Part shown: piece by piece, positions 4,741-45,502 of the stretch
How the letters are laid out: each line of letters opens with the position of its first letter
Position numbering within the stretch: the stretch's first letter is position 1
From: Patescibacteria group bacterium
GTDB taxonomy: Bacteria; Patescibacteriota; Patescibacteriia; JACRDY01
Length of the DNA stretch: 64,000 nucleotides
Direction: 5' to 3'
Assembly (NCBI GenBank): GCA_041650515.1
Contig: JBAZLA010000004.1
Coordinates: forward strand, 23,748 to 87,747
The notes under the pieces: model-generated
The model's input: only the letters and a program-made list of their open reading frames with translations
What the model was told of the DNA's origin: nothing
Databases searched by the model: none
Made by a program: the position numbers and the translations under genes

Positions 4741-4843
4741 AATGGGCCGGCCGGCCCGCCTCCGTCCGCAACGGCGGATTACGACGGGTAAAGATTCTAC
4801 CTCGGCGCTTTGCGCCTCGCTTCTGCCCGTATAAATCCCTCCA
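4741..4843 (-). repeat. GC-rich tRNA-like unit C ending in a copy of the tRNA-Tyr 3' terminus (..CCGGCCCA)
   Basis: 103-nt GC-rich block in an AT-rich genome. The minus-strand 3' end GGGCCGGCCGGCCCA repeats the last 8 nt of tRNA-Tyr. Internal stem-loops: gcgaggcgc-aaa-gcgccgagg and ccgccgttgcggacgg. Confidence 0.3.
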
Positions 4844-4881
4844 AATGAAAAAATCCTGCCAAAAAGCAAGATTTTTTCATT
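4844..4881 (-). repeat. AT-rich spacer hairpin between tRNA-like units
   Basis: aatgaaaaaatcctgc caaaaa gcaagattttttcatt: near-perfect 15-bp stem. Confidence 0.5.
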
Positions 4882-4957
4882 TGGGCCGGGAGGGATTCAC
4901 CTCGCTCCGCTCGCCCTGGGTCCGCCCGCGGCGGACCCGTGCAAATCCCACATCCAG
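4882..4957 (-). ncRNA. tRNA-like unit A (tmRNA-like 5' motif; 3' end identical to the last 13 nt of tRNA-Tyr)
   Basis: Minus strand reads GAUUCUGGAUGUGGGAUUUGCAC-GGGUCCGCC-GCG-GGCGGACCC-AGGGCGAGCGGAGCGAGGUGAAUCCCUCCCGGCCCA. The perfect 9-bp GC hairpin is shared with unit B (39621-39645). Its 3' end CCCTCCCGGCCCA equals the tRNA-Tyr T-stem/acceptor 3' end. GAUUCUGGAU and GGGAUUUGC resemble the E. coli tmRNA 5' region (quoted from memory). Confidence 0.3.
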
Positions 4958-4998: not shown

Positions 4999-5081
4999 TG
5001 GGCCGGGAGGGATTTGCACCCCCGAAGGCGTAAGCCAGCTGATTTACAGTCAGCCCCGTTTGACTGCTTCGGTACCGACCC
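4999..5081 (-). tRNA. tRNA-Tyr (anticodon GTA), type II long variable arm, CCA not encoded
   Basis: Minus strand: GGGTCGG UA CCGAAGCAGUCAAACGG G GCUGA CUGUAAA UCAGC UGGCUUACGCCUUC GGGGG UGCAAAU CCCUC CCGGCCC A. Acceptor 7 bp (one G.U). Anticodon stem 5 bp with a U-GUA-A loop. Long variable arm and T-arm present. Confidence 0.8.
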
Positions 5082-12501: not shown

Positions 12502-12617
12502 AACAATTTAATTATAGCACAAAAATAAAATAATAAAAAACAACGACTACCAATATTAATGTTTTTGATTAGGCCTAGTCTCTAATCTTAAATTCAAATG
12601 CATCAAAAGTTTTCAAT

Positions 12618-12780
12618 CTGGCGGGGGTTTAGGGGCGTTTGCGGCGCGTAAGCGCACCCTCGACTCCTAAGACGATGTTGAGGGAGTGCGCTGGTTAAAA
12701 CAAACTAAAGATGAACAAAACTCGCGCCGCAAACGCCCCTAAAACTTTTTTGGTTACTTTTTTAGTTATAAAAAAGTAAC
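12618..12780. repeat. Structured GC-rich intergenic element R1 (copy 1 of 2)
   Basis: Perfect 21-bp outer stem tttaggggcgtttgcggcgcg / cgcgccgcaaacgcccctaaa. Inner hairpin gcgcaccctc..gagggagtgcgc. Conserved single-stranded aaagatgaacaaaac, then an 11-bp AT hairpin gttactttttt-agttat-aaaaaagtaac. Homologous to 14874-15032. Confidence 0.55.
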
Positions 12781-14821: not shown

Positions 14822-14873
14822 ATATAATTTAAAATACACCAACTTTATCTTAAAAGCAACCAAAATATTAAAC

Positions 14874-15032
14874 CCGGCGGGGGTTTGGGGGTCGTTTGCG
14901 GCGCGGAGCCGCAGTCCCCGTCTGGCCGATACCGTCCAGGGGGCAAGGCGGGTTGATCCACATGAAAGTGAACAACACCCGCGCCTCAAACGCCCCCAAA
15001 GGTTTTTTGTTACTTTTTTGGCTCCAAAAAAG
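14874..15032. repeat. Structured GC-rich intergenic element R2 (copy 2 of 2)
   Basis: Outer stem tttgggggtcgtttgcggcgcgg / ccgcgcctcaaacgcccccaaa with compensatory a-u to g-c change relative to R1. Different inner hairpin. Conserved aaagtgaacaacac. Terminal AT hairpin gttacttttttgg..ccaaaaaagtaa. Confidence 0.55.
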
Positions 15033-15152
15033 TAAATGACCTTTGTGATATAAACCACCCGATCCTTCGTCCGCCTACGGCGGACTCAGGATGACAAATA
15101 AAAAAGAGGCCTATAAACCTCTTACTCTAAAATTTCACGTTTAAAACCACTG

Positions 15153-32478: not shown

Positions 32479-32775
32479 AGTTTTTAGATAATTTTTTTAT
32501 ATTATAACATATTAGTAAACTACCGTAAACGAAATCAAGCTTTATTTCAAATAAAAAACAACGATCTCAGGATAACTTTCAATCCGCAACGGCGGTCCCC
32601 AAGTGCCCGTACCACTGGTGGTATAGATCGAAAAACTGCCCGAAGTATGCAACCCCTAATCATAATCATGATAAATCAACTTGGTTATATAGTTAAAGGA
32701 CATAATTTTCCAAAACATATATTAGCGCTCTCATCATTCTACCACTTTTAATGGATAAACAAAAAAATCCGCTCC

Positions 32776-32945
32776 AAAGCTCCGAGGGTGGGACTCCTTC
32801 GCCCAGCAGCGAAGCCTGGGTTTGGCGGCGCCTTTGGCGCAACGCCAAACCCTTTGAATTCACCCCGCGACATAAGCAGTCATGTCGCTCTCTCCTCATT
32901 CGCCTCGCTCATTCAGAGAGGGTGAATTCAAACCCACAACCAAGT
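32776..32945 (-). pseudogene. tRNA-Asn 3'-half duplicate interrupted by a 133-nt structured insertion in the T-loop
   Basis: 32776-32796 (aaagctccgagggtgggactc) and 32930-32945 (aaacccacaaccaagt) are identical to the T-arm/acceptor part of the intact tRNA-Asn 200 nt away. The 133 nt between them (32797-32929) forms nested stems: 10-bp gaattcaccc..gggtgaattc, 7-bp gcgacat..atgtcgc, 7-bp tttggcg..cgccaaa and 6-bp cttcgc..gcgaag. Confidence 0.6.
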
Positions 32946-32989
32946 AACTAATTCAAAATAATTCACAAATATCAAAAAAGACGGCAAAG

Positions 32990-33061
32990 CTCCGAGGGTG
33001 GGACTCGAACCCACAACCAAGTGGTTAACAGCCACCTGCGCTACCATTGCGCTACCTCGGA
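32990..33061 (-). tRNA. tRNA-Asn (anticodon GTT), CCA not encoded
   Basis: Minus strand: UCCGAGG UA GCGC AAUGGUA GCGC A GGUGG CUGUUAA CCACU UGGUU GUGGG UUCGAGU CCCAC CCUCGGA G. The flanking aaagc/gcttt extend the acceptor helix. Confidence 0.85.
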
Positions 33062-33144
33062 GCTTTGCCGTCTTAATCTTTAAAAAAATAAATTTTACAA
33101 CAAATCATTATGCCTGCCCCGTGGTCCCATAAGGACTTTACGGG

Positions 33145-33160
33145 GCTACCTCGGAGCTTT
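33145..33160 (-). repeat. 16-nt exact duplicate of the tRNA-Asn 5' end (gctacctcggagcttt) next to the rpoD terminator hairpin
   Basis: Identical to 33051-33066. Adjacent hairpin ccccgt..acgggg at 33117-33144. Confidence 0.6.
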
Positions 33161-33191
33161 AAAGCGGATAACTTTATGGATTAATATTTTA

Positions 33192-34433
33192 CTAGTAATC
33201 CCGTAATTTTTCAATATCCCGACTATGGCGAATCTTTTCTAAGGCCTTAGCTTCAATTTGACGAATACGTTCGCGAGTAACATCAAACTCCTTACCGACT
33301 TCTTCTAGGGTATGAGAAACACCATCTAATAGACCAAAGCGCATTTCCAGAATCTTTTGTTCCCGGGGTGACAATTCTTTAATTACTTCTTTAACATAAT
33401 CGCGCAATAAACGCAAACCGGCTGACCGATCGGGGCTGACATTTTTTACATCCTTAATAAAGTCCTCTAGGGTACTATCTTCATCATCTTCACCGACTGA
33501 GGTTTCTAAAGAAATCGTATCTTGAGAAATTTTGATAATATGTCTAACTTTATCAAGTTCTTCATTCATCTCAGCCGCGACTTCTTCTGGCAACGGTTCA
33601 CGACCCAAATCTTGAATTAACTGCCGCTCAACCTGCTGAAACTTATTAATTGTTTCCACCATATGCACGGGGATACGGATCGTCCGCGACTGATCGGCCA
33701 AGGCTCGAGTAATCGCCTGGCGAATCCACCAAGTAGCATAAGTAGAAAATTTATAACCTTTACGATATTCAAATTTCTCAACTGCCCGAAATAAACCAAT
33801 ATTCCCTTCTTGAATCAAGTCAGCTAATGACAGGCTCTTGCCAACAAATTTTTTAGCAATAGAAACAACTAACCTTAGGTTGGCTTCAATCAATCGTTTC
33901 TCGGCATCAGTGTCATCCCGTTCTTTGCGTTTGGCTAGAGCAATTTCTTCATCACCAGTTAATAACGGTACCTTACCAATCTCCCGCAAGTACATCTGAA
34001 TTGAATCAGCGGAAATCTCACCTAGATCAATCCCCTTACTGACCTCGGGCGCGGCCGCTGTAACTTTTTTGAACATTTCTCCTTGTTCCACTTTTCTACC
34101 CAACAAACCGCCTCTATTCTCAATAATCTGGACGCCATTGCGGTCTAATCGCTCTAAAAATTCTTCAAACAAATCCAAATAATGCTCAAGGCTAGGAAAA
34201 GCATATAGAATTTCTTCCTCAGTTAGAAAGCTTTTTGCCCGGCCCTTTTTGATTAACCAATCAGTTGTTTCTGGAGCTGGCTGAACCACCTTTAAGCTGG
34301 CCACCTTCTTGGTCGCCTTTTTCTTACTAACTATCTTTCTCCTCTTACCAAAAACGCTCTTACGCTTTTTGGCTGATCCGACCGATTTGCTGCTTTTTTT
34401 AGCCGCTCGCTTATTTTTATTTTCTTTAGCCAT
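33192..34433 (-). CDS. rpoD: RNA polymerase sigma factor RpoD (sigma-70)
   Basis: 413 aa. Region 2 ([41 protein letters not shown]) and region 4 ([24 protein letters not shown]). Basic Lys-rich N-terminus. Confidence 0.9.
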
Positions 34434-39549: not shown

Positions 39550-39660
39550 TGGCGGAGAGGGCGGGATTTCCGCCTCCCCTTCAACTCCCCCGATATGCAT
39601 CGGGGTCGCTCAGGGTCGTTGCCCTGGGTCCGCCCGCGGCGAACCCGTTCGAATCCCCTC
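39550..39660 (-). ncRNA. tRNA-like unit B (acceptor-like stem, tmRNA-like GGAUUCGAACGGG motif, encoded CCA), homologous to unit A
   Basis: Minus strand: GGAGGGG-AUUCGAACGGG-UUCGCC-GCG-GGCGGACCC-AGGGCAACGACCCUG-AGCGA-CCCCGAUGCAUAUCGGGG-GAGUUGAAGGGGA-GGCGGAAAUCCCGCC-CUCUCC-G-CCA. 5' GGAGGGG pairs with 3' CCUCUCC (one G.U), nearly identical to the tRNA-Ser acceptor. The 9-bp hairpin has a U.G where unit A has C.G. Confidence 0.35.
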
Positions 39661-39711
39661 CACATCTTAACGGAAATCTGCCGCCCACAAAAGTGGGCGT
39701 CAAATTTCCAT
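39661..39711 (-). repeat. Long AT/GC hairpin spacer between tRNA-Ser and unit B
   Basis: ggaaat-ttgac-gcccac-tttt-gtgggc-ggcag-atttcc. Confidence 0.5.
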
Positions 39712-43955: not shown

Positions 43956-44111
43956 AAAATAAACAAAATAAAGGTTAGACTTATTATAACAAACTTAGGT
44001 TGATTAATAAATACGATCATCTGCCTCACCCATTGACATAAAACAAGAAACTAACTAAAGTAAAATATTAACCAGAAAACTACTTCCCAAGCCCAAAGGA
44101 GGGCAAAAAAA

Positions 44112-44480
44112 ATGAAATCAGTTACCATTGTCAGCGCTATTGGTAGGTCGGCAACACCGCACCTACAGATTAACCAAGACTACTACGACACCCTGGCAGA
44201 GTTGATCAAGACCCAACTCGCCAGTCCTCAGATCGCGATCAAGATTGTGTCTGATATCACCGCGCTGGAAGTCTTGCCCTGTGGTCAAAACAAACTCCAA
44301 GCCGTGATCTTTGTCTCCAGCGGCATGCTGGACGAAGCCAAACAGCTTCGCCAGCAACACCCCGAACTCACGGTGGTGGTGTTGAGCGGTGAGATTCCGG
44401 CCGGCGAGATCGTTCACATTAACATCGGCTGGGGGCTATCCCCGGAGATATTTCAACGAATCGTCAGCGCCGCCAACTGA
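44112..44480 (+). CDS. GC-rich orphan alpha/beta protein, paralog 1 (function unknown)
   Basis: 122 aa. RBS aaggaggg 8 nt upstream; own terminator. Codon usage visibly GC-rich against an AT-rich background. Paralogous to the next gene. Confidence 0.5.
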   Translation: MKSVTIVSAIGRSATPHLQINQDYYDTLAELIKTQLASPQIAIKIVSDITALEVLPCGQNKLQAVIFVSSGMLDEAKQLRQQHPELTVVVLSGEIPAGEIVHINIGWGLSPEIFQRIVSAAN

Positions 44481-44482
44481 CC

Positions 44483-44516
44483 CCTACGGACAGCCCAGCC
44501 TGCCCGTTCTTTTTAT
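44483..44516 (+). terminator. Rho-independent terminator of orphan paralog 1
   Basis: cggacagc-ccagc-ctgcccg + UCUUUUUAUUU. Confidence 0.6.
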
Positions 44517-44596
44517 TTAATGTCAAAACCTTTATTGCTCTTATTCAGATAGTGTGGTTAAATATAAAATCACGTCGGAAAAGGAGGGAGAATCAA

Positions 44597-44980
44597 ATGC
44601 TAATTGCCATCGTCGAGCAAACCAACCTCAACAACCAAACCGACCAGCGATACACCGGGATGATCGAAAATCTCAGCCAGCGGCTCGCCGATCATGACAA
44701 CATCATCGTCCAGGTGATGCCAACGGTTGAAATGGCCAAAAGAATGATCACTCAAATTAGATTTTCCGCCATCATCTTTGTTTCGGGCTATATGGTTAAA
44801 CCGGCTCGAGAGCTAGCCCTGGCGATTCGTCGCCAAGGTCTGACCACCAAGGTCATTACGCTCGAAGGGGCGATGGTGGTCGAAGCCCAAATGAATGAGC
44901 CGATCATCCGACTCGACAAGGTGGCGGCATCAGCCAACAACTGCCGAGAACTCATCCGGGCCATCTGCCGGGCAAACTGA
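44597..44980 (+). CDS. GC-rich orphan alpha/beta protein, paralog 2
   Basis: 127 aa from ATG 44597 (RBS aaaaggaggg). Shares IAIVEQT, AIIFVSGYMV and L..A..LR.Q....T..V..L.G with paralog 1. Near-identical terminator module. Confidence 0.5.
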   Translation: MLIAIVEQTNLNNQTDQRYTGMIENLSQRLADHDNIIVQVMPTVEMAKRMITQIRFSAIIFVSGYMVKPARELALAIRRQGLTTKVITLEGAMVVEAQMNEPIIRLDKVAASANNCRELIRAICRAN

Positions 44981-45013
44981 CGGACAGCTCCTTCGCTGCC
45001 CGTTTTTTTATTT
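44979..45013 (+). terminator. Rho-independent terminator of orphan paralog 2
   Basis: cggacagc-uccuuc-gcugcccg + UUUUUUUAUUU. Confidence 0.6.
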
Positions 45014-45363
45014 GACGACCTTATTAATCTTTGTTAGTTTACTAAAAGAGCGAACATTTATTTTTGGCGAAAACAATGGGCTCGCTGGGAAATGAGACTA
45101 AGTCTTTAGGAGAACTGCCGACCTCCTATCCGGTAACCCATCCCCCACCGGAATTTCCTGGTAACCCGTTCTGCCCGTCGGCGGCTTCAGGCCGGGGGCT
45201 GCTGGAGGGTTATCGTTTTTGCCAATTTGTGGGTGTTTCTTCCACCCGCGATTGCCACACCAAACTTTAGAAGTCTTAGCGAGGTCTGGGGCTCATAACC
45301 CCGGTTGAGGTCCATCGCTCGGCCTCATTGCCAGGGACGCAAATTCCCTCTTCTGGAGTGGCT

Positions 45364-45406
45364 CAGGATTCCGACCCTTGGTCAACGGAATCCTTTTTGT
45401 TTTTTA
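45364..45406 (+). terminator. Strong rho-independent terminator ending a GC-rich non-coding stretch
   Basis: aggauuccg-acccuuggucaa-cggaauccu + UUUUUGUUUUUU. Confidence 0.6.
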
Positions 45407-45415
45407 TAAATAACA

Positions 45416-45502
45416 CACAGTCCATAGTACCCAGTACACAGATATAAGAACCCACCGACGGTGGGTTTTGATTACTATGGACTAGGTACTCGGTACTGTG
45501 GA

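What the first reader, a model, noticed from the sequence alone, without database searches (positions are those of the whole stretch)
32776..33160. tRNA-Asn flanked by its own 5' and 3' fragments; the 3'-half copy is split by a 133-nt highly structured insertion
Three pieces of tRNA-Asn are found within 400 bp. They are the intact gene (32990-33061), an exact 16-nt copy of its 5' end upstream (33145-33160), and a 3'-half copy downstream (32776-32945). The T-loop of the 3'-half copy is interrupted, between UU and GAGU, by a 133-nt insert folding into four nested perfect stems of 6-10 bp. tRNA 3'-half duplications are the classic footprint of integrase-mediated insertion at tRNA genes, yet no integrase or cargo is present. 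The insert looks like a miniature structured element or MITE-like parasite of the att copy. Together with the tRNA-Tyr and tRNA-Ser modules, every tRNA locus in this window carries GC-rich structured appendages.
Basis: seen in the sequence. Interest (0 to 1): 0.6.

Follow-up and report, generated by a model that had tools for sequence, protein, structure and literature searches.

The report
Wreck of an overwritten tRNA-Asn gene
The working tRNA-Asn gene of this uncultured Patescibacteria (CPR) bacterium sits inside the two broken ends of an older tRNA-Asn gene, most likely the scar of a small mobile tRNA cassette that still carries a GIY-YIG nuclease gene in some related bacteria and other metagenome contigs but not here.

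Summary
An intact tRNA-Asn(GTT) lies on the minus strand at 32990-33061. A 16-nt exact copy of its 5' end lies upstream. A 3' half lies downstream, and its T loop is split by a unique 133-nt GC-rich insert with a highly stable predicted fold.

New points:
- The two outer fragments carry their own complementary leader and trailer, so they are the two ends of one former gene. The only promoter-like site lies upstream of them.
- The inner gene has a different, perfect 13-bp leader/trailer stem followed by a U run.
- There is no integrase, transposase or GIY-YIG gene anywhere in the 64 kb.
- The insert has no second copy in any sequence I could reach and no Rfam match. It folds equally well on both strands.
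- Orthologous tRNA-Asn and tRNA-Ser loci of related CPR genomes are either clean or carry the same layout: 5' pseudo-fragment, intact tRNA, 3' pseudo-fragment. GC hairpins sit at the D arm, anticodon or T arm. Several of these loci also hold an ~80-aa free-standing GIY-YIG gene, and one holds a group I intron.

Best reading (about 0.5): a nuclease-less fossil of a tRNA-replacing homing-type cassette. The integrase reading does not fit the Asn locus, and the MITE reading has no support. The wider element family looks undescribed.

The parts
33186..33214 (-). Promoter-like site TTGAAA-17-TAAAAT, upstream of the OUTER 5' fragment. No such site lies directly before the inner tRNA.
   Evidence: 10 of 12 consensus matches
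33161..33169 (-). Distal leader arm of the outer (old) tRNA-Asn gene, ATCCGCTTT. It is complementary to the distal trailer arm at 32767-32774.
   Evidence: I2 (21-nt arms, 90% complementary); (the pairing appears in the minimum-energy fold)
33145..33160 (-). Outer 5' fragment: 16-nt exact copy of leader AAAGC plus tRNA positions 1-11
   Evidence: (D3)
33116..33146 (-). GC hairpin that caps the 5' fragment after tRNA position 11, GCCCCGTAAAGTCCTTATGGGACCACGGGGC. Relatives carry hairpins at the same D-arm site: L085 at 9|10, L088 at 12|13, L013 in the D loop.
   Evidence: relatives
33075..33115 (-). AT-rich spacer. It occupies the position where related loci carry the GIY-YIG ORF or its remnants.
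   Evidence: no GIY-YIG by tblastn; compare
32978..33074 (-). Inner, intact tRNA-Asn(GTT) cassette. The tRNA is at 32990-33061, enclosed by a perfect 20-bp inverted repeat made of the acceptor stem plus a 13-bp leader/trailer stem (AAGACGGCAAAGC / GCTTTGCCGTCTT).
   Evidence: (I1)
32972..32977 (-). U run after the inner leader/trailer stem. Stem plus U run looks like a terminator that encloses the tRNA.
   Evidence: the same design with covarying stems in L082, L085 and L088
32931..32945 (-). Outer 3' half, part a: tRNA positions 40-54 (ACTTGGTTGTGGGTT), 15/15
   Evidence: (D2)
32797..32929 (-). 133-nt GC-rich palindrome-rich insert in the T loop of the outer 3' half. It is unique, has no Rfam family and folds equally on both strands.
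32775..32796 (-). Outer 3' half, part b: tRNA positions 57-73 plus trailer CTTTG, 22/22
   Evidence: (D1)
32761..32774 (-). Distal trailer arm of the outer gene (GAGCGGAT), followed by its own U run
   Evidence: (I2)

Best explanation
The locus is the fossil of a gene replacement.

A resident tRNA-Asn gene, with its own promoter, its own leader/trailer stem and its own U run, was split. A complete second tRNA-Asn allele, with a different leader/trailer stem and U run, now sits between the two stumps and supplies the function.

Some related bacteria and other metagenome contigs show the same layout in a fuller form: 5' stump, then an ~80-aa free-standing GIY-YIG nuclease gene, then a complete tRNA, then a 3' stump. 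GC-rich hairpins replace or interrupt the D arm, the anticodon region or the T arm of the stumps.

The proposed mechanism is homing-type, free-standing-endonuclease gene conversion:
1. The nuclease breaks a naive tRNA gene.
2. Repair copies in the cassette, which includes a working tRNA, so the insertion is harmless.
3. The displaced stumps carry GC palindromes.
4. The nuclease gene is later lost by deletion.

On this view the 133-nt insert is the largest and most elaborate of these palindromic stump modifications. It is not an independent MITE.

Shown directly:
- the nested anatomy in the window;
- the same anatomy in relatives, with or without the nuclease gene;
- presence/absence polymorphism at orthologous loci.

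Inferred:
- that the nuclease drove the insertion;
- that the window once had a nuclease gene;
- how the palindromes arise.
For: Anatomy in the window
- The outer fragments carry their own complementary distal flanks, ATCCGCT.. / ..AGCGGAT. These are in register with the acceptor strands and differ from the inner AAGACGGC / GCCGTCTT (I1 and I2).
- The whole locus folds as an outer 23-bp stem enclosing a hairpin, the inner cloverleaf on its 20-bp stem, and the T arm with the insert. dG is -206 kcal/mol and z is -12.6.
- The only promoter-like site lies upstream of the outer fragment.

Leader/trailer stems are native
- A leader/trailer stem plus U run is a native feature of clean tRNA-Asn genes in relatives, and the stem sequences covary (L082, L085, L088).
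- So the window's outer and inner units each look like a native-type allele.

Orthologous loci
- The loci share the synteny ligA-gatCA-PKD-Trx-[tRNA-Ser]...DnaG-sigma-[tRNA-Asn].
- L082 is clean at both loci. L088 is clean at the Asn locus.
- L083 and L085/L092 carry a 5' pseudo-copy and up to three 3' pseudo-copies of tRNA-Asn with GC hairpins.
- L088 carries a tRNA-Ser 5' stump with a 22-nt palindrome.

Association with the nuclease
- GIY-YIG ORFs (PF01541, E about 1e-17) lie between stump and intact tRNA in L013, L083, L085, L089 and L094.
- I also sampled two further GIY-YIG proteins starting from the protein alone. Both sit in stump-GIY-YIG-tRNA-Ser arrangements, and some strain variants add a 3' stump.

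Evidence that the outer pieces are the resident gene
- In L097 the outer stumps have acceptor strands GGAGAGG / CCTCTCC. The inner tRNA has GGAAGGG / CCCTTCC.
- In L085 the downstream tRNA-Ser stump has the T arm, acceptor end and upstream flank of the clean L082 gene. The intact copy next to the nuclease gene differs.
- In the window's Ser locus the displaced 3' end keeps the encoded CCA seen in relatives. The working gene has none.

Loss of the nuclease gene in relatives
- L094 keeps only the first and last ~25 nt of one GIY-YIG ORF.
- L092 has arrays of stumps with no ORF.
Against: - There is no trace of a GIY-YIG ORF in the window (tblastn; Pfam).
- The 133-nt insert shows no sequence relation to the conserved hairpin modules of the GIY-YIG loci. 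A covariance model of the Ser-type module gives only E >= 5 inside it.
- No relative examined has an insertion within an otherwise retained T loop. The closest case is replacement of the whole T arm by a hairpin in L083 and L085.
- The inner and outer tRNA-Asn bodies are identical where both exist. Their foreign versus resident status therefore rests only on the flanks.
- These ~80-aa proteins are a bare catalytic domain, and their cleavage specificity is untested.
- The intact tRNA in nuclease-bearing loci keeps an unmodified anticodon region, so simple 'target destroyed by insertion' logic does not explain immunity.
- The closest available relatives are only 75-80% identical in sigma-70, so the history cannot be followed step by step.
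Confidence: 0.5

Rival explanations
1. Integrase att-site scar. An element integrated into tRNA-Asn at the anticodon arm and brought a replacement 3' part. It was later deleted almost completely, leaving the displaced 3' half (attR) 45 nt downstream. The insert would be a remnant of the element's end.
For: - A displaced 3' copy that runs from inside the tRNA to the discriminator is the classic product of integration (PMC9897764, read).
- At the Tyr, Ser and L012-Asn loci the direct repeat runs from the T loop to the acceptor end, ending at the discriminator in Tyr and Ser. The T loop is one of the known crossover sublocations for integrases; this last point is from my own recollection of Williams 2002, which I did not read here.
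- In the Ser locus the displaced copy keeps the ancestral CCA.
Against: - Integration does not create an upstream 5' fragment.
- The 5' and 3' fragments have complementary private flanks, so they are the two halves of one gene (I2).
- There is no integrase, excisionase or cargo in the 64 kb.
- Four separate loci (three in the window and L012) would all have had to be deleted down to 100-210 nt.
- Relatives with the same layout carry a GIY-YIG gene, not an integrase.
Confidence: 0.15
2. Local partial tandem duplications by slippage or unequal crossing-over, with breakpoints inside the tRNA. One would have produced the 5' fragment and another the 3' half. Decay followed, with independent growth of GC palindromes. 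No mobile element is involved.
For: - Partial duplications with one breakpoint inside a gene give exactly 'fragment + intact' or 'intact + fragment'.
- Arrays of near-identical pseudo-copies with identical trailers in L092 look like tandem amplification.
- No nuclease or recombinase is present in the window.
Against: - A recent duplication should copy the flanks. Here the distal leader and trailer of the outer unit differ completely from those of the inner unit, yet each pair is self-complementary.
- The 5' and 3' stumps pair with each other, which is not expected from two independent duplications.
- Neutral decay in a 40% GC genome should not produce 58% GC perfect palindromes.
- The same architecture recurs next to GIY-YIG genes when sampling starts from the protein.
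Confidence: 0.2
3. The 3' half plus insert, or the whole nested locus, is a functional structured RNA. It might be a processing or stability element of the pre-tRNA transcript, or a tRNA-mimicking small RNA.
For: - Very strong predicted folds (z = -5.8 to -12.6).
- The appendages are GC-rich in an AT-rich genome.
- All three tRNA loci of the window carry one.
- The Ser appendage folds into a four-way junction closed by an acceptor-like stem and ends in GCCA.
- The tRNA-identical blocks of the pseudo-copies track the cognate tRNA of each genome.
Against: - It is not conserved. Orthologous loci of relatives are empty or carry different pieces.
- The insert folds equally well on both strands and 47 of its 50 predicted pairs are Watson-Crick, as expected for DNA palindromes.
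- It lies downstream of the inner stem plus U run.
- There is no Rfam match even at E <= 10.
- Tyr1 and Tyr2 do not fold better than shuffled sequence (z = -1.1 and -0.4).
Confidence: 0.07
4. The 133-nt insert is a MITE-like or small palindromic mobile element that happened to land in a dead tRNA copy.
For: - It has sharp boundaries inside an otherwise exact tRNA copy.
- There is a possible 2-nt TC duplication at the boundaries.
- Its nested palindromes resemble stacks of small repeat elements inserted into one another.
- Other short GC modules are shared between tRNA-linked sites. A 37-nt module is shared by Tyr1 and Ser (D15). A 13-mer is shared by Tyr2 and 32583-32595.
Against: - No second copy of the insert or of any of its hairpins was found in the window, in about 1.2 Mb of related loci, or in the phage and plasmid collections. 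An exact pattern built from its 13-bp arms found nothing in viral contigs.
- Its termini are not inverted repeats of each other.
- A 2-nt duplication has a 1 in 16 chance expectation.
- The rest of the 472-kb contig and of the genome could not be searched.
Confidence: 0.08

Closest known systems
Free-standing GIY-YIG homing endonucleases that sit next to a resistant allele of their target, such as phage T4 SegB in the tRNA gene cluster (PMC2330249; related mobE work PMC2790892)
   Same: - A small GIY-YIG gene sits beside tRNA genes.
- Spread is inferred to occur by double-strand break and co-conversion of flanking DNA that includes a working copy of the targeted gene.
- Tandem amplification of the region is seen in L092 and L094. 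A 2026 paper (PMC13096335, abstract only) reports SegB-driven amplification.
   Different: - These elements are chromosomal, in CPR and other bacteria, not in phage.
- The protein is only ~80 aa, a bare catalytic domain with no DNA-binding domain.
- The ORF often ends inside the tRNA's 5' region.
- The resident tRNA gene is left as two stumps carrying conserved GC hairpin modules.
- In the window itself the nuclease gene is absent.
- Cleavage activity is untested.
Integrase-mediated insertion of islands or prophages into tRNA genes, leaving attL/attR with a displaced tRNA 3' fragment (PMC9897764; Williams 2002 as cited there)
   Same: - The incoming DNA carries tRNA sequence, so the gene stays functional.
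- A displaced 3' copy runs from inside the tRNA to the discriminator and lies downstream.
   Different: - A 5' fragment is also present.
- The fragments lie 45-90 nt from the intact gene, not kilobases away.
- There is no integrase.
- The complete tRNA with its own leader and trailer is the incoming unit.
Group I introns in bacterial tRNA anticodon loops, and 'collaborative homing' of an intron with a free-standing endonuclease (review PMC3984707, title and abstract only; the term 'collaborative homing' is from my own knowledge and was not read here)
   Same: - The L013 relative has exactly this: a group I intron (RF00028, 56 bits) in the tRNA-Asn anticodon loop.
- The GIY-YIG gene lies directly upstream of that tRNA in L013.
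- A hairpin-bearing 5' stump lies before the GIY-YIG gene in L013.
   Different: The window's insert is 133 nt, lies in the T loop of a dead copy, has no intron signature and cannot restore a tRNA, because positions 12-39 are missing.
Short ORF-less insertions and intervening sequences at stem-loop tips of CPR rRNA genes (PMC11270868)
   Same: - The host clade is the same.
- They are short (<200 bp), uncharacterised, ORF-less insertions at tips of stem-loops of structural RNA genes.
- GIY-YIG proteins are noted in some non-intron insertions.
   Different: - Those lie in functional rRNA genes and are presumably removed from the RNA.
- This one is in a non-functional tRNA fragment.
- That paper does not mention tRNA (0 occurrences).

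Membership tests
Integrase att scar at a tRNA gene | Direct repeat of the tRNA 3' part: one copy in the intact gene, one displaced downstream | tested here: met
   22-nt and 15-nt exact copies
Integrase att scar at a tRNA gene | Integrase gene and/or island cargo between or beside the repeats | tested here: not met
   The spacer is 45 nt. No integrase or recombinase Pfam hit anywhere in the 64 kb.
Integrase att scar at a tRNA gene | Only the 3' part is duplicated, and homology stops at the att core | tested here: not met
   A 16-nt 5' copy lies upstream. The outer fragments have complementary private flanks (I2).
MITE / small dispersed palindromic repeat | Multiple copies in the genome | tested here: inconclusive
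   No other copy in the 64-kb window, in about 1.2 Mb of related loci, or in the phage and plasmid collections. An exact pattern of one arm pair found nothing in viral contigs.
MITE / small dispersed palindromic repeat | Terminal inverted repeats at the element's ends, plus a target-site duplication | tested here: not met
   The ends GAATTCACCC... and ...GGGCGAAG are not inverted repeats. The 13-bp inverted repeat is internal (I5). Only an ambiguous 2-nt TC is duplicated.
tRNA-replacing GIY-YIG cassette (defined here from L013, L083, L085, L089, L094, L097, L107) | A complete tRNA lies between a 5' stump and a 3' stump of the same tRNA species | tested here: met
   Window. Relatives.
tRNA-replacing GIY-YIG cassette (defined here from L013, L083, L085, L089, L094, L097, L107) | The stumps belong together and differ from the inner allele | tested here: met
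   Outer ATCCGCT/AGCGGAT versus inner AAGACGGC/GCCGTCTT. The L097 acceptor strands differ in the same way.
tRNA-replacing GIY-YIG cassette (defined here from L013, L083, L085, L089, L094, L097, L107) | An ~80-aa GIY-YIG ORF lies adjacent to the intact tRNA | tested here: not met
   tblastn and Pfam are negative in the window. ORF-less versions do exist in relatives (L083 Asn locus, L085/L092).
tRNA-replacing GIY-YIG cassette (defined here from L013, L083, L085, L089, L094, L097, L107) | GC hairpin module at the D arm, anticodon or T arm of the stumps, homologous to the conserved modules | tested here: inconclusive
   Hairpins are present at the D-arm site (33116-33146) and in the T loop. The covariance model R1 does not recognise the 133-nt insert (E >= 5). 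It ranks the Tyr1, 15070 and Ser hairpins top, at only E = 0.07-1.
Group I intron / known RNA family | Match to an Rfam covariance model | tested here: not met
   Only the tRNA matched at the gathering threshold, at E <= 5 over the window and at E <= 10 over 32740-33180.
Intron-containing or split functional tRNA | The pieces can be joined into a complete cloverleaf | tested here: not met
   The outer copy lacks positions 12-39, that is most of the D arm, the anticodon stem 5' strand and the anticodon.

The most novel reading that the evidence does not exclude
The GC-rich hairpin modules and the tRNA-identical blocks around them may be working parts of an undescribed class of minimal mobile elements.

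Such an element would consist of an ~80-aa GIY-YIG catalytic domain with no DNA-binding domain, plus a replacement tRNA gene. The structured, tRNA-derived modules would supply target or structure recognition, acting as guide-like RNA or as cruciform DNA. The replacement tRNA would make insertion into an essential single-copy gene harmless. This would be a natural 'cleave-and-rescue' design.

The window's three tRNA appendages would then be nuclease-less, possibly trans-mobilisable derivatives. That includes the locus-specific antisense T-loop segments of Tyr1 and Ser.
Probability: 0.12. Interest if true: 0.8.

Novelty: new variant of a known kind. Interest (0 to 1): 0.5.

Why it matters
tRNA genes in streamlined CPR genomes are mostly single-copy and essential, so it is unclear how mobile DNA could colonise them.

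This locus and its relatives suggest a route other than the integrase route. The invader brings a whole working tRNA and leaves the resident gene as two hairpin-capped stumps.

If the link to the nuclease is confirmed, three things follow:
- It would define a new, very small homing-type element. It is common in Patescibacteria and present in at least one GC-rich metagenome contig of unknown taxonomy (L094).
- It would explain frequent assembly breaks at tRNA genes in these MAGs. L005, L007 and L085 all end at tRNA-Asn.
- It would explain some mis-called or missed tRNA genes.

For the window itself the practical message is modest: the 133-nt structure is most likely a scar, not a gene.

Tried and rejected
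- Cyanobacterial small dispersed repeats or HIP1 context. The window is 40% GC, has only 2 HIP1 sites, and its sigma-70 places it in Patescibacteria.
- tmRNA, split or permuted tRNA. ARAGORN and Rfam found nothing, and the outer copy lacks positions 12-39.
- Coding potential of the insert. The two ORFs overlapping it (68 aa and 66 aa) have no Pfam match.
- A further decayed tRNA-Asn copy in 32500-32775. Local alignment is no better than shuffles (207/300 and 22/300 reach the score).
- A genome-wide TCC-stem-GGA hairpin family. It is not enriched in the window: 14 observed against 9.1 in shuffles, maximum 22.
- Collection scans for the Tyr/Ser 26-nt module and for the 13-bp arms of the insert. 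There were 0 hits in viral contigs and 0 in JGI metagenomes for the module. That collection evidently does not contain this contig, so this negative says little.
- Literature. Full-text searches found no paper describing GIY-YIG genes flanked by hairpin-bearing tRNA stumps in bacteria. This covers that library only.
- attC, bridge-RNA and primer-binding-site analogies for the sense/antisense tRNA segments. I considered these from memory and dropped them. The consensus motifs do not fit, no partner enzyme is present, and no CCA complement is present.
Full report
**Source and setting**

The window is part of a 472-kb metagenome contig, ENA ERZ27247363 k141_1064255. Its sigma-70 is most similar to those of Patescibacteria/CPR MAGs. 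Identity is 66-73% against species representatives and at best 75-80% in a 5.8-billion-protein collection, so no close relative is available. The DNA is 40% GC and almost every long ORF is on the minus strand. Pfam annotation of the whole window shows only housekeeping genes. There is no integrase, transposase or GIY-YIG gene.

**The observation**

tRNA-Asn(GTT) lies on the minus strand at 32990-33061. Read along the minus strand, the locus contains the following, in order.

- **Promoter-like site.** TTGAAA-17-TAAAAT at 33214..33186.
- **Outer leader and 5' fragment.** A leader ATCCGCTTT is followed by a 16-nt exact copy of AAAGC plus tRNA positions 1-11, at 33160..33145.
- **GC hairpin.** 33146..33116.
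- **AT-rich spacer.** About 40 nt.
- **Intact tRNA.** It is enclosed in a perfect 20-bp inverted repeat. This is the acceptor stem extended by 13 bp of leader and trailer, AAGACGGCAAAGC / GCTTTGCCGTCTT, followed by a U run.
- **Second spacer.** 26 nt.
- **3' half, part a.** tRNA positions 40-54 (15/15).
- **Insert.** 133 nt.
- **3' half, part b.** tRNA positions 57-73 plus CTTTG (22/22).
- **Outer trailer.** GAGCGGAT followed by a U run.

The insert is 58% GC and folds into three adjacent domains with six stems of 5-13 bp. Its z-scores are -5.8 to -7.4. It folds equally well on the plus strand (z = -6.0), and 47 of its 50 predicted pairs are Watson-Crick.

The two outer fragments belong together. 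Their distal flanks are complementary to each other and in register with the acceptor strands (21-nt arms at 90%, I2). These flanks are unrelated in sequence to the equally complementary flanks of the inner gene (I1). The whole 411-nt locus folds as a nested object. An outer 23-bp stem encloses the cap hairpin, the inner cloverleaf on its 20-bp stem, and the T arm with the insert (dG -206 kcal/mol, z = -12.6).

A leader/trailer stem followed by a U run is the normal design of clean tRNA-Asn genes in relatives, and the stem sequences covary. It is seen in L082 (11 bp), L085 (14 bp) and L088 (8 bp). The locus therefore holds two native-type tRNA-Asn units. One is complete. The other is reduced to its two ends, wrapped around the first, and still owns the only promoter-like site.

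**Relatives**

The tRNA-Ser(GGA) and tRNA-Asn loci are orthologous across the window, L082, L083 and L088. All share the synteny ligA-gatC-gatA-x-PKD-thioredoxin-[Ser]...Gmad2-DnaG-sigma-[Asn]. In L085 only the DnaG-sigma-[Asn] part is shared. Their content differs.

- **L082.** Clean at both loci.
- **L088.** Clean at the Asn locus. At the Ser locus it has a 5' stump (positions 1-25) with a 22-nt perfect palindrome inserted between positions 12 and 13.
- **L083.** After tRNA-Asn it has a copy in which positions 25-34 and the whole T arm are replaced by hairpins with the same stem, TCCGCC...GGCGGA.
- **L085 with its continuation L092.**
  - It has a 5' stump with two hairpins, then the intact gene, then three 3' pseudo-copies.
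  - Its hairpin stems are TCCTGC...GCAGGA, so they covary with those of L083.
  - The tRNA-identical blocks match each genome's own tRNA.
- **L012.** It has a T-loop-to-acceptor copy behind a structured ~100-nt segment.
- **L005, L007 and L085.** All three contigs end at or just after tRNA-Asn, as expected where repeats break assemblies.

**Link to a nuclease**

Several loci carry an ~80-aa GIY-YIG ORF (PF01541, E about 1e-17) between a stump and an intact tRNA.

- **L083 and L085.** tRNA-Ser, then GIY-YIG, then a tRNA-Ser copy with a 34-43-nt two-hairpin insert between G35 and A36.
- **L013.** A 5' stump with a D-loop hairpin, then GIY-YIG, then a tRNA-Asn carrying a group I intron (RF00028, 56 bits) in its anticodon loop.
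- **L089 and L094.** I found these with a DNA pattern for the hairpin-substituted tRNA-Asn. L094 is GC-rich and taxonomically unassigned. It carries arrays that include a deleted ORF remnant.

To avoid circularity I then started from the protein. I took two arbitrary homologues out of 82, each found on many contigs. Both lie in the same arrangement around tRNA-Ser(GGA): a 5' stump with the two-hairpin insert, then the ORF with its stop codon inside the tRNA's 5' region, then the intact tRNA. A 3' stump with the same insert follows in L097 and some of its strain variants, but not in L099 or L107.

The Ser-type insert is conserved across these lineages: CCACCGCC-NNN-GGCGGGG-TYCCGCC-NNN-GGCGGRA. 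The loops vary, and there is one compensatory stem change.

**Which piece is resident**

- **L097.**
  - The outer stumps carry acceptor strands GGAGAGG / CCTCTCC. The inner tRNA carries GGAAGGG / CCCTTCC.
  - The strain variant L099 has lost the 3' stump by recombination.
- **L085.** The stump downstream of the nuclease gene has the T arm, acceptor end and upstream flank of the clean L082 gene. The intact copy differs.
- **Window, Ser locus.** The displaced 3' end keeps the encoded CCA that relatives have. The working gene has none.

The outer pieces are therefore the old gene and the inner tRNA came in. This is the same relation that the flanks indicate for the window's Asn locus.

**Interpretation**

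The best-supported reading is that the window's Asn locus is a nuclease-less, partly deleted member of this kind of arrangement. A resident tRNA-Asn gene was overwritten by a cassette that carried a complete tRNA-Asn. I infer that this happened through endonuclease-initiated gene conversion, as with free-standing GIY-YIG homing endonucleases such as T4 SegB (PMC2330249).

The cap hairpin after position 11 has counterparts at the same D-arm site in L085, L088 and L013. The T-loop insert has its nearest counterpart in the T-arm replacement of L083 and L085.

Several things are not shown:
- that the nuclease cuts tRNA genes;
- that the window ever had the ORF;
- how GC palindromes arise or what they do.

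The 133-nt insert itself has no detectable relative.
- blastn-short found no second copy against the window and related loci.
- An exact pattern of its 13-bp arms found nothing in viral contigs.
- blastn found nothing in the phage and plasmid collections.
- Rfam found nothing at E <= 10.
- A covariance model of the conserved Ser-type module gives only E >= 5 inside it.
- That same model ranks the Tyr1, 15070 and Ser hairpins of the window first, at marginal E-values of 0.07, 0.13 and 1.

**Rivals**

- **Integrase scar (0.15).**
  - It explains a displaced 3' copy.
  - It does not explain the 5' fragment, the paired private flanks, the 45-nt spacer or the lack of any integrase.
  - It remains more plausible for the Tyr, Ser and L012 appendages, whose repeats start in the T loop and, in Tyr and Ser, end at the discriminator.
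- **Local partial duplication plus decay (0.2).** It does not explain unrelated but self-complementary flanks, or GC-rich perfect palindromes in an AT-rich genome.
- **Functional RNA (0.07).** The locus is not conserved, the folds are strand-symmetric, and the 3' half lies behind a stem plus U run.
- **MITE (0.08).** It has no copy-number support and the insert has no terminal inverted repeats. However, only about 6% of a ~1-Mb genome (my assumption for its size) could be searched.

**Novelty and score**

Displaced tRNA fragments are well known (PMC9897764). So are free-standing GIY-YIG endonucleases near tRNA genes (PMC2330249). The following combination was not found in the searchable literature:
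- a complete replacement tRNA;
- two stumps of the resident gene;
- conserved hairpin modules;
- a bare ~80-aa GIY-YIG domain whose ORF runs into the tRNA.

I rate the window's feature as a new variant of a known kind, with interest 0.5. The specific 133-nt structure is probably a scar, but it points to an element family worth describing.

The most novel reading still open is that the hairpin and tRNA-derived modules confer target recognition on a minimal 'cleave-and-rescue' element. I give it about 0.12.

Noticed in passing
window 4882-4951 (Tyr1) and 4743-4846 (Tyr2), minus strand: Two successive appendages lie downstream of tRNA-Tyr, each followed by its own AT-rich hairpin plus U run.
- Tyr1 starts with an 11-nt exact antisense copy of the tRNA-Tyr T loop and T-stem 3' strand (GGGATTTGCAC). 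It ends with a 16-nt exact sense copy, AATCCCTCCCGGCCCA.
- Tyr2 is more diverged. It contains a 16/17 match to the leader plus 5' end of tRNA-Asn (AAAGCGCCGAGGTAG).
- Neither folds better than shuffled sequence (z = -1.1 and -0.4).
   Followed up: partly
window 39550-39666, minus strand: An appendage lies downstream of tRNA-Ser(GGA).
- It has an 11-nt antisense T-loop copy (GGGATTCGAAC).
- It shares a 37-nt module with Tyr1 (39621-39657 versus 4913-4949, 92% identity).
- It ends with a 16-nt sense copy followed by CCA.
- The working tRNA-Ser has no encoded CCA, whereas relatives do.
- It folds into a four-way junction closed by an acceptor-like stem (z = -4.0).
   Followed up: partly
window 32978-32997 / 33055-33074; L082 11259-11350; L085 11393-11493; L088 11268-11368: tRNA-Asn genes of this clade are enclosed by a leader/trailer stem of 8-14 bp that extends the acceptor stem. 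A U run follows. The stem sequences covary between genomes. It looks like an intrinsic terminator, or a processing stem, wrapped around the whole tRNA.
   Followed up: partly
window 32583-32595: A 13-mer, CCGCCGTTGCGGA (minus strand), lies in a GC-rich island between the Asn locus and pilB. It is shared exactly with Tyr2, and 0 of 300 shuffles reach the score. The rest of 32500-32775 shows no tRNA similarity beyond chance.
   Followed up: yes
window 12587-12779 and 14843-15035: Two copies of a ~190-nt intergenic element lie 2256 nt apart. Each has a 17-bp GC-rich stem (GGGGCGTTTGCGGCGCG...CGCGCCGCAAACGCCCC) enclosing ~75 nt, preceded by an AT hairpin. There is no Rfam match.
   Followed up: no
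window 15054-15095: A hairpin GTCATCCTGAG[TCCGCCGTAGGCGGA]CGAAGGATC. Its core is the second-best hit of the covariance model built from the GIY-YIG-associated module (E = 0.13).
   Followed up: partly
window 43956-45502: The gap between ligA and gatC is GC-rich and 1.5 kb long, against about 200-470 nt in L083 and L082. It holds two opposite-strand ORFs (122 aa and 142 aa) with no Pfam match. This may be a lineage-specific insertion.
   Followed up: partly
L013 5226-5838: In a CPR relative, a tRNA-Asn 5' stump with a D-loop hairpin comes first. Next is a GIY-YIG ORF whose stop codon lies in the D loop of the following tRNA. That tRNA-Asn is interrupted in the anticodon loop by a group I intron (RF00028, 56 bits). 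ARAGORN misses the gene.
   Followed up: yes
L097 1427-1940 versus L099 1738-1830: This is a strain polymorphism. L099 lacks the 3' stump because of recombination between the intact tRNA-Ser and the stump. Its only tRNA-Ser(GGA) copy at this locus is left with an A-C mismatch in the acceptor stem.
   Followed up: partly
window 4999-5081: tRNA-Tyr has an unusual T loop, UGCAAAU, with G where the conserved U55 is expected.
   Followed up: no
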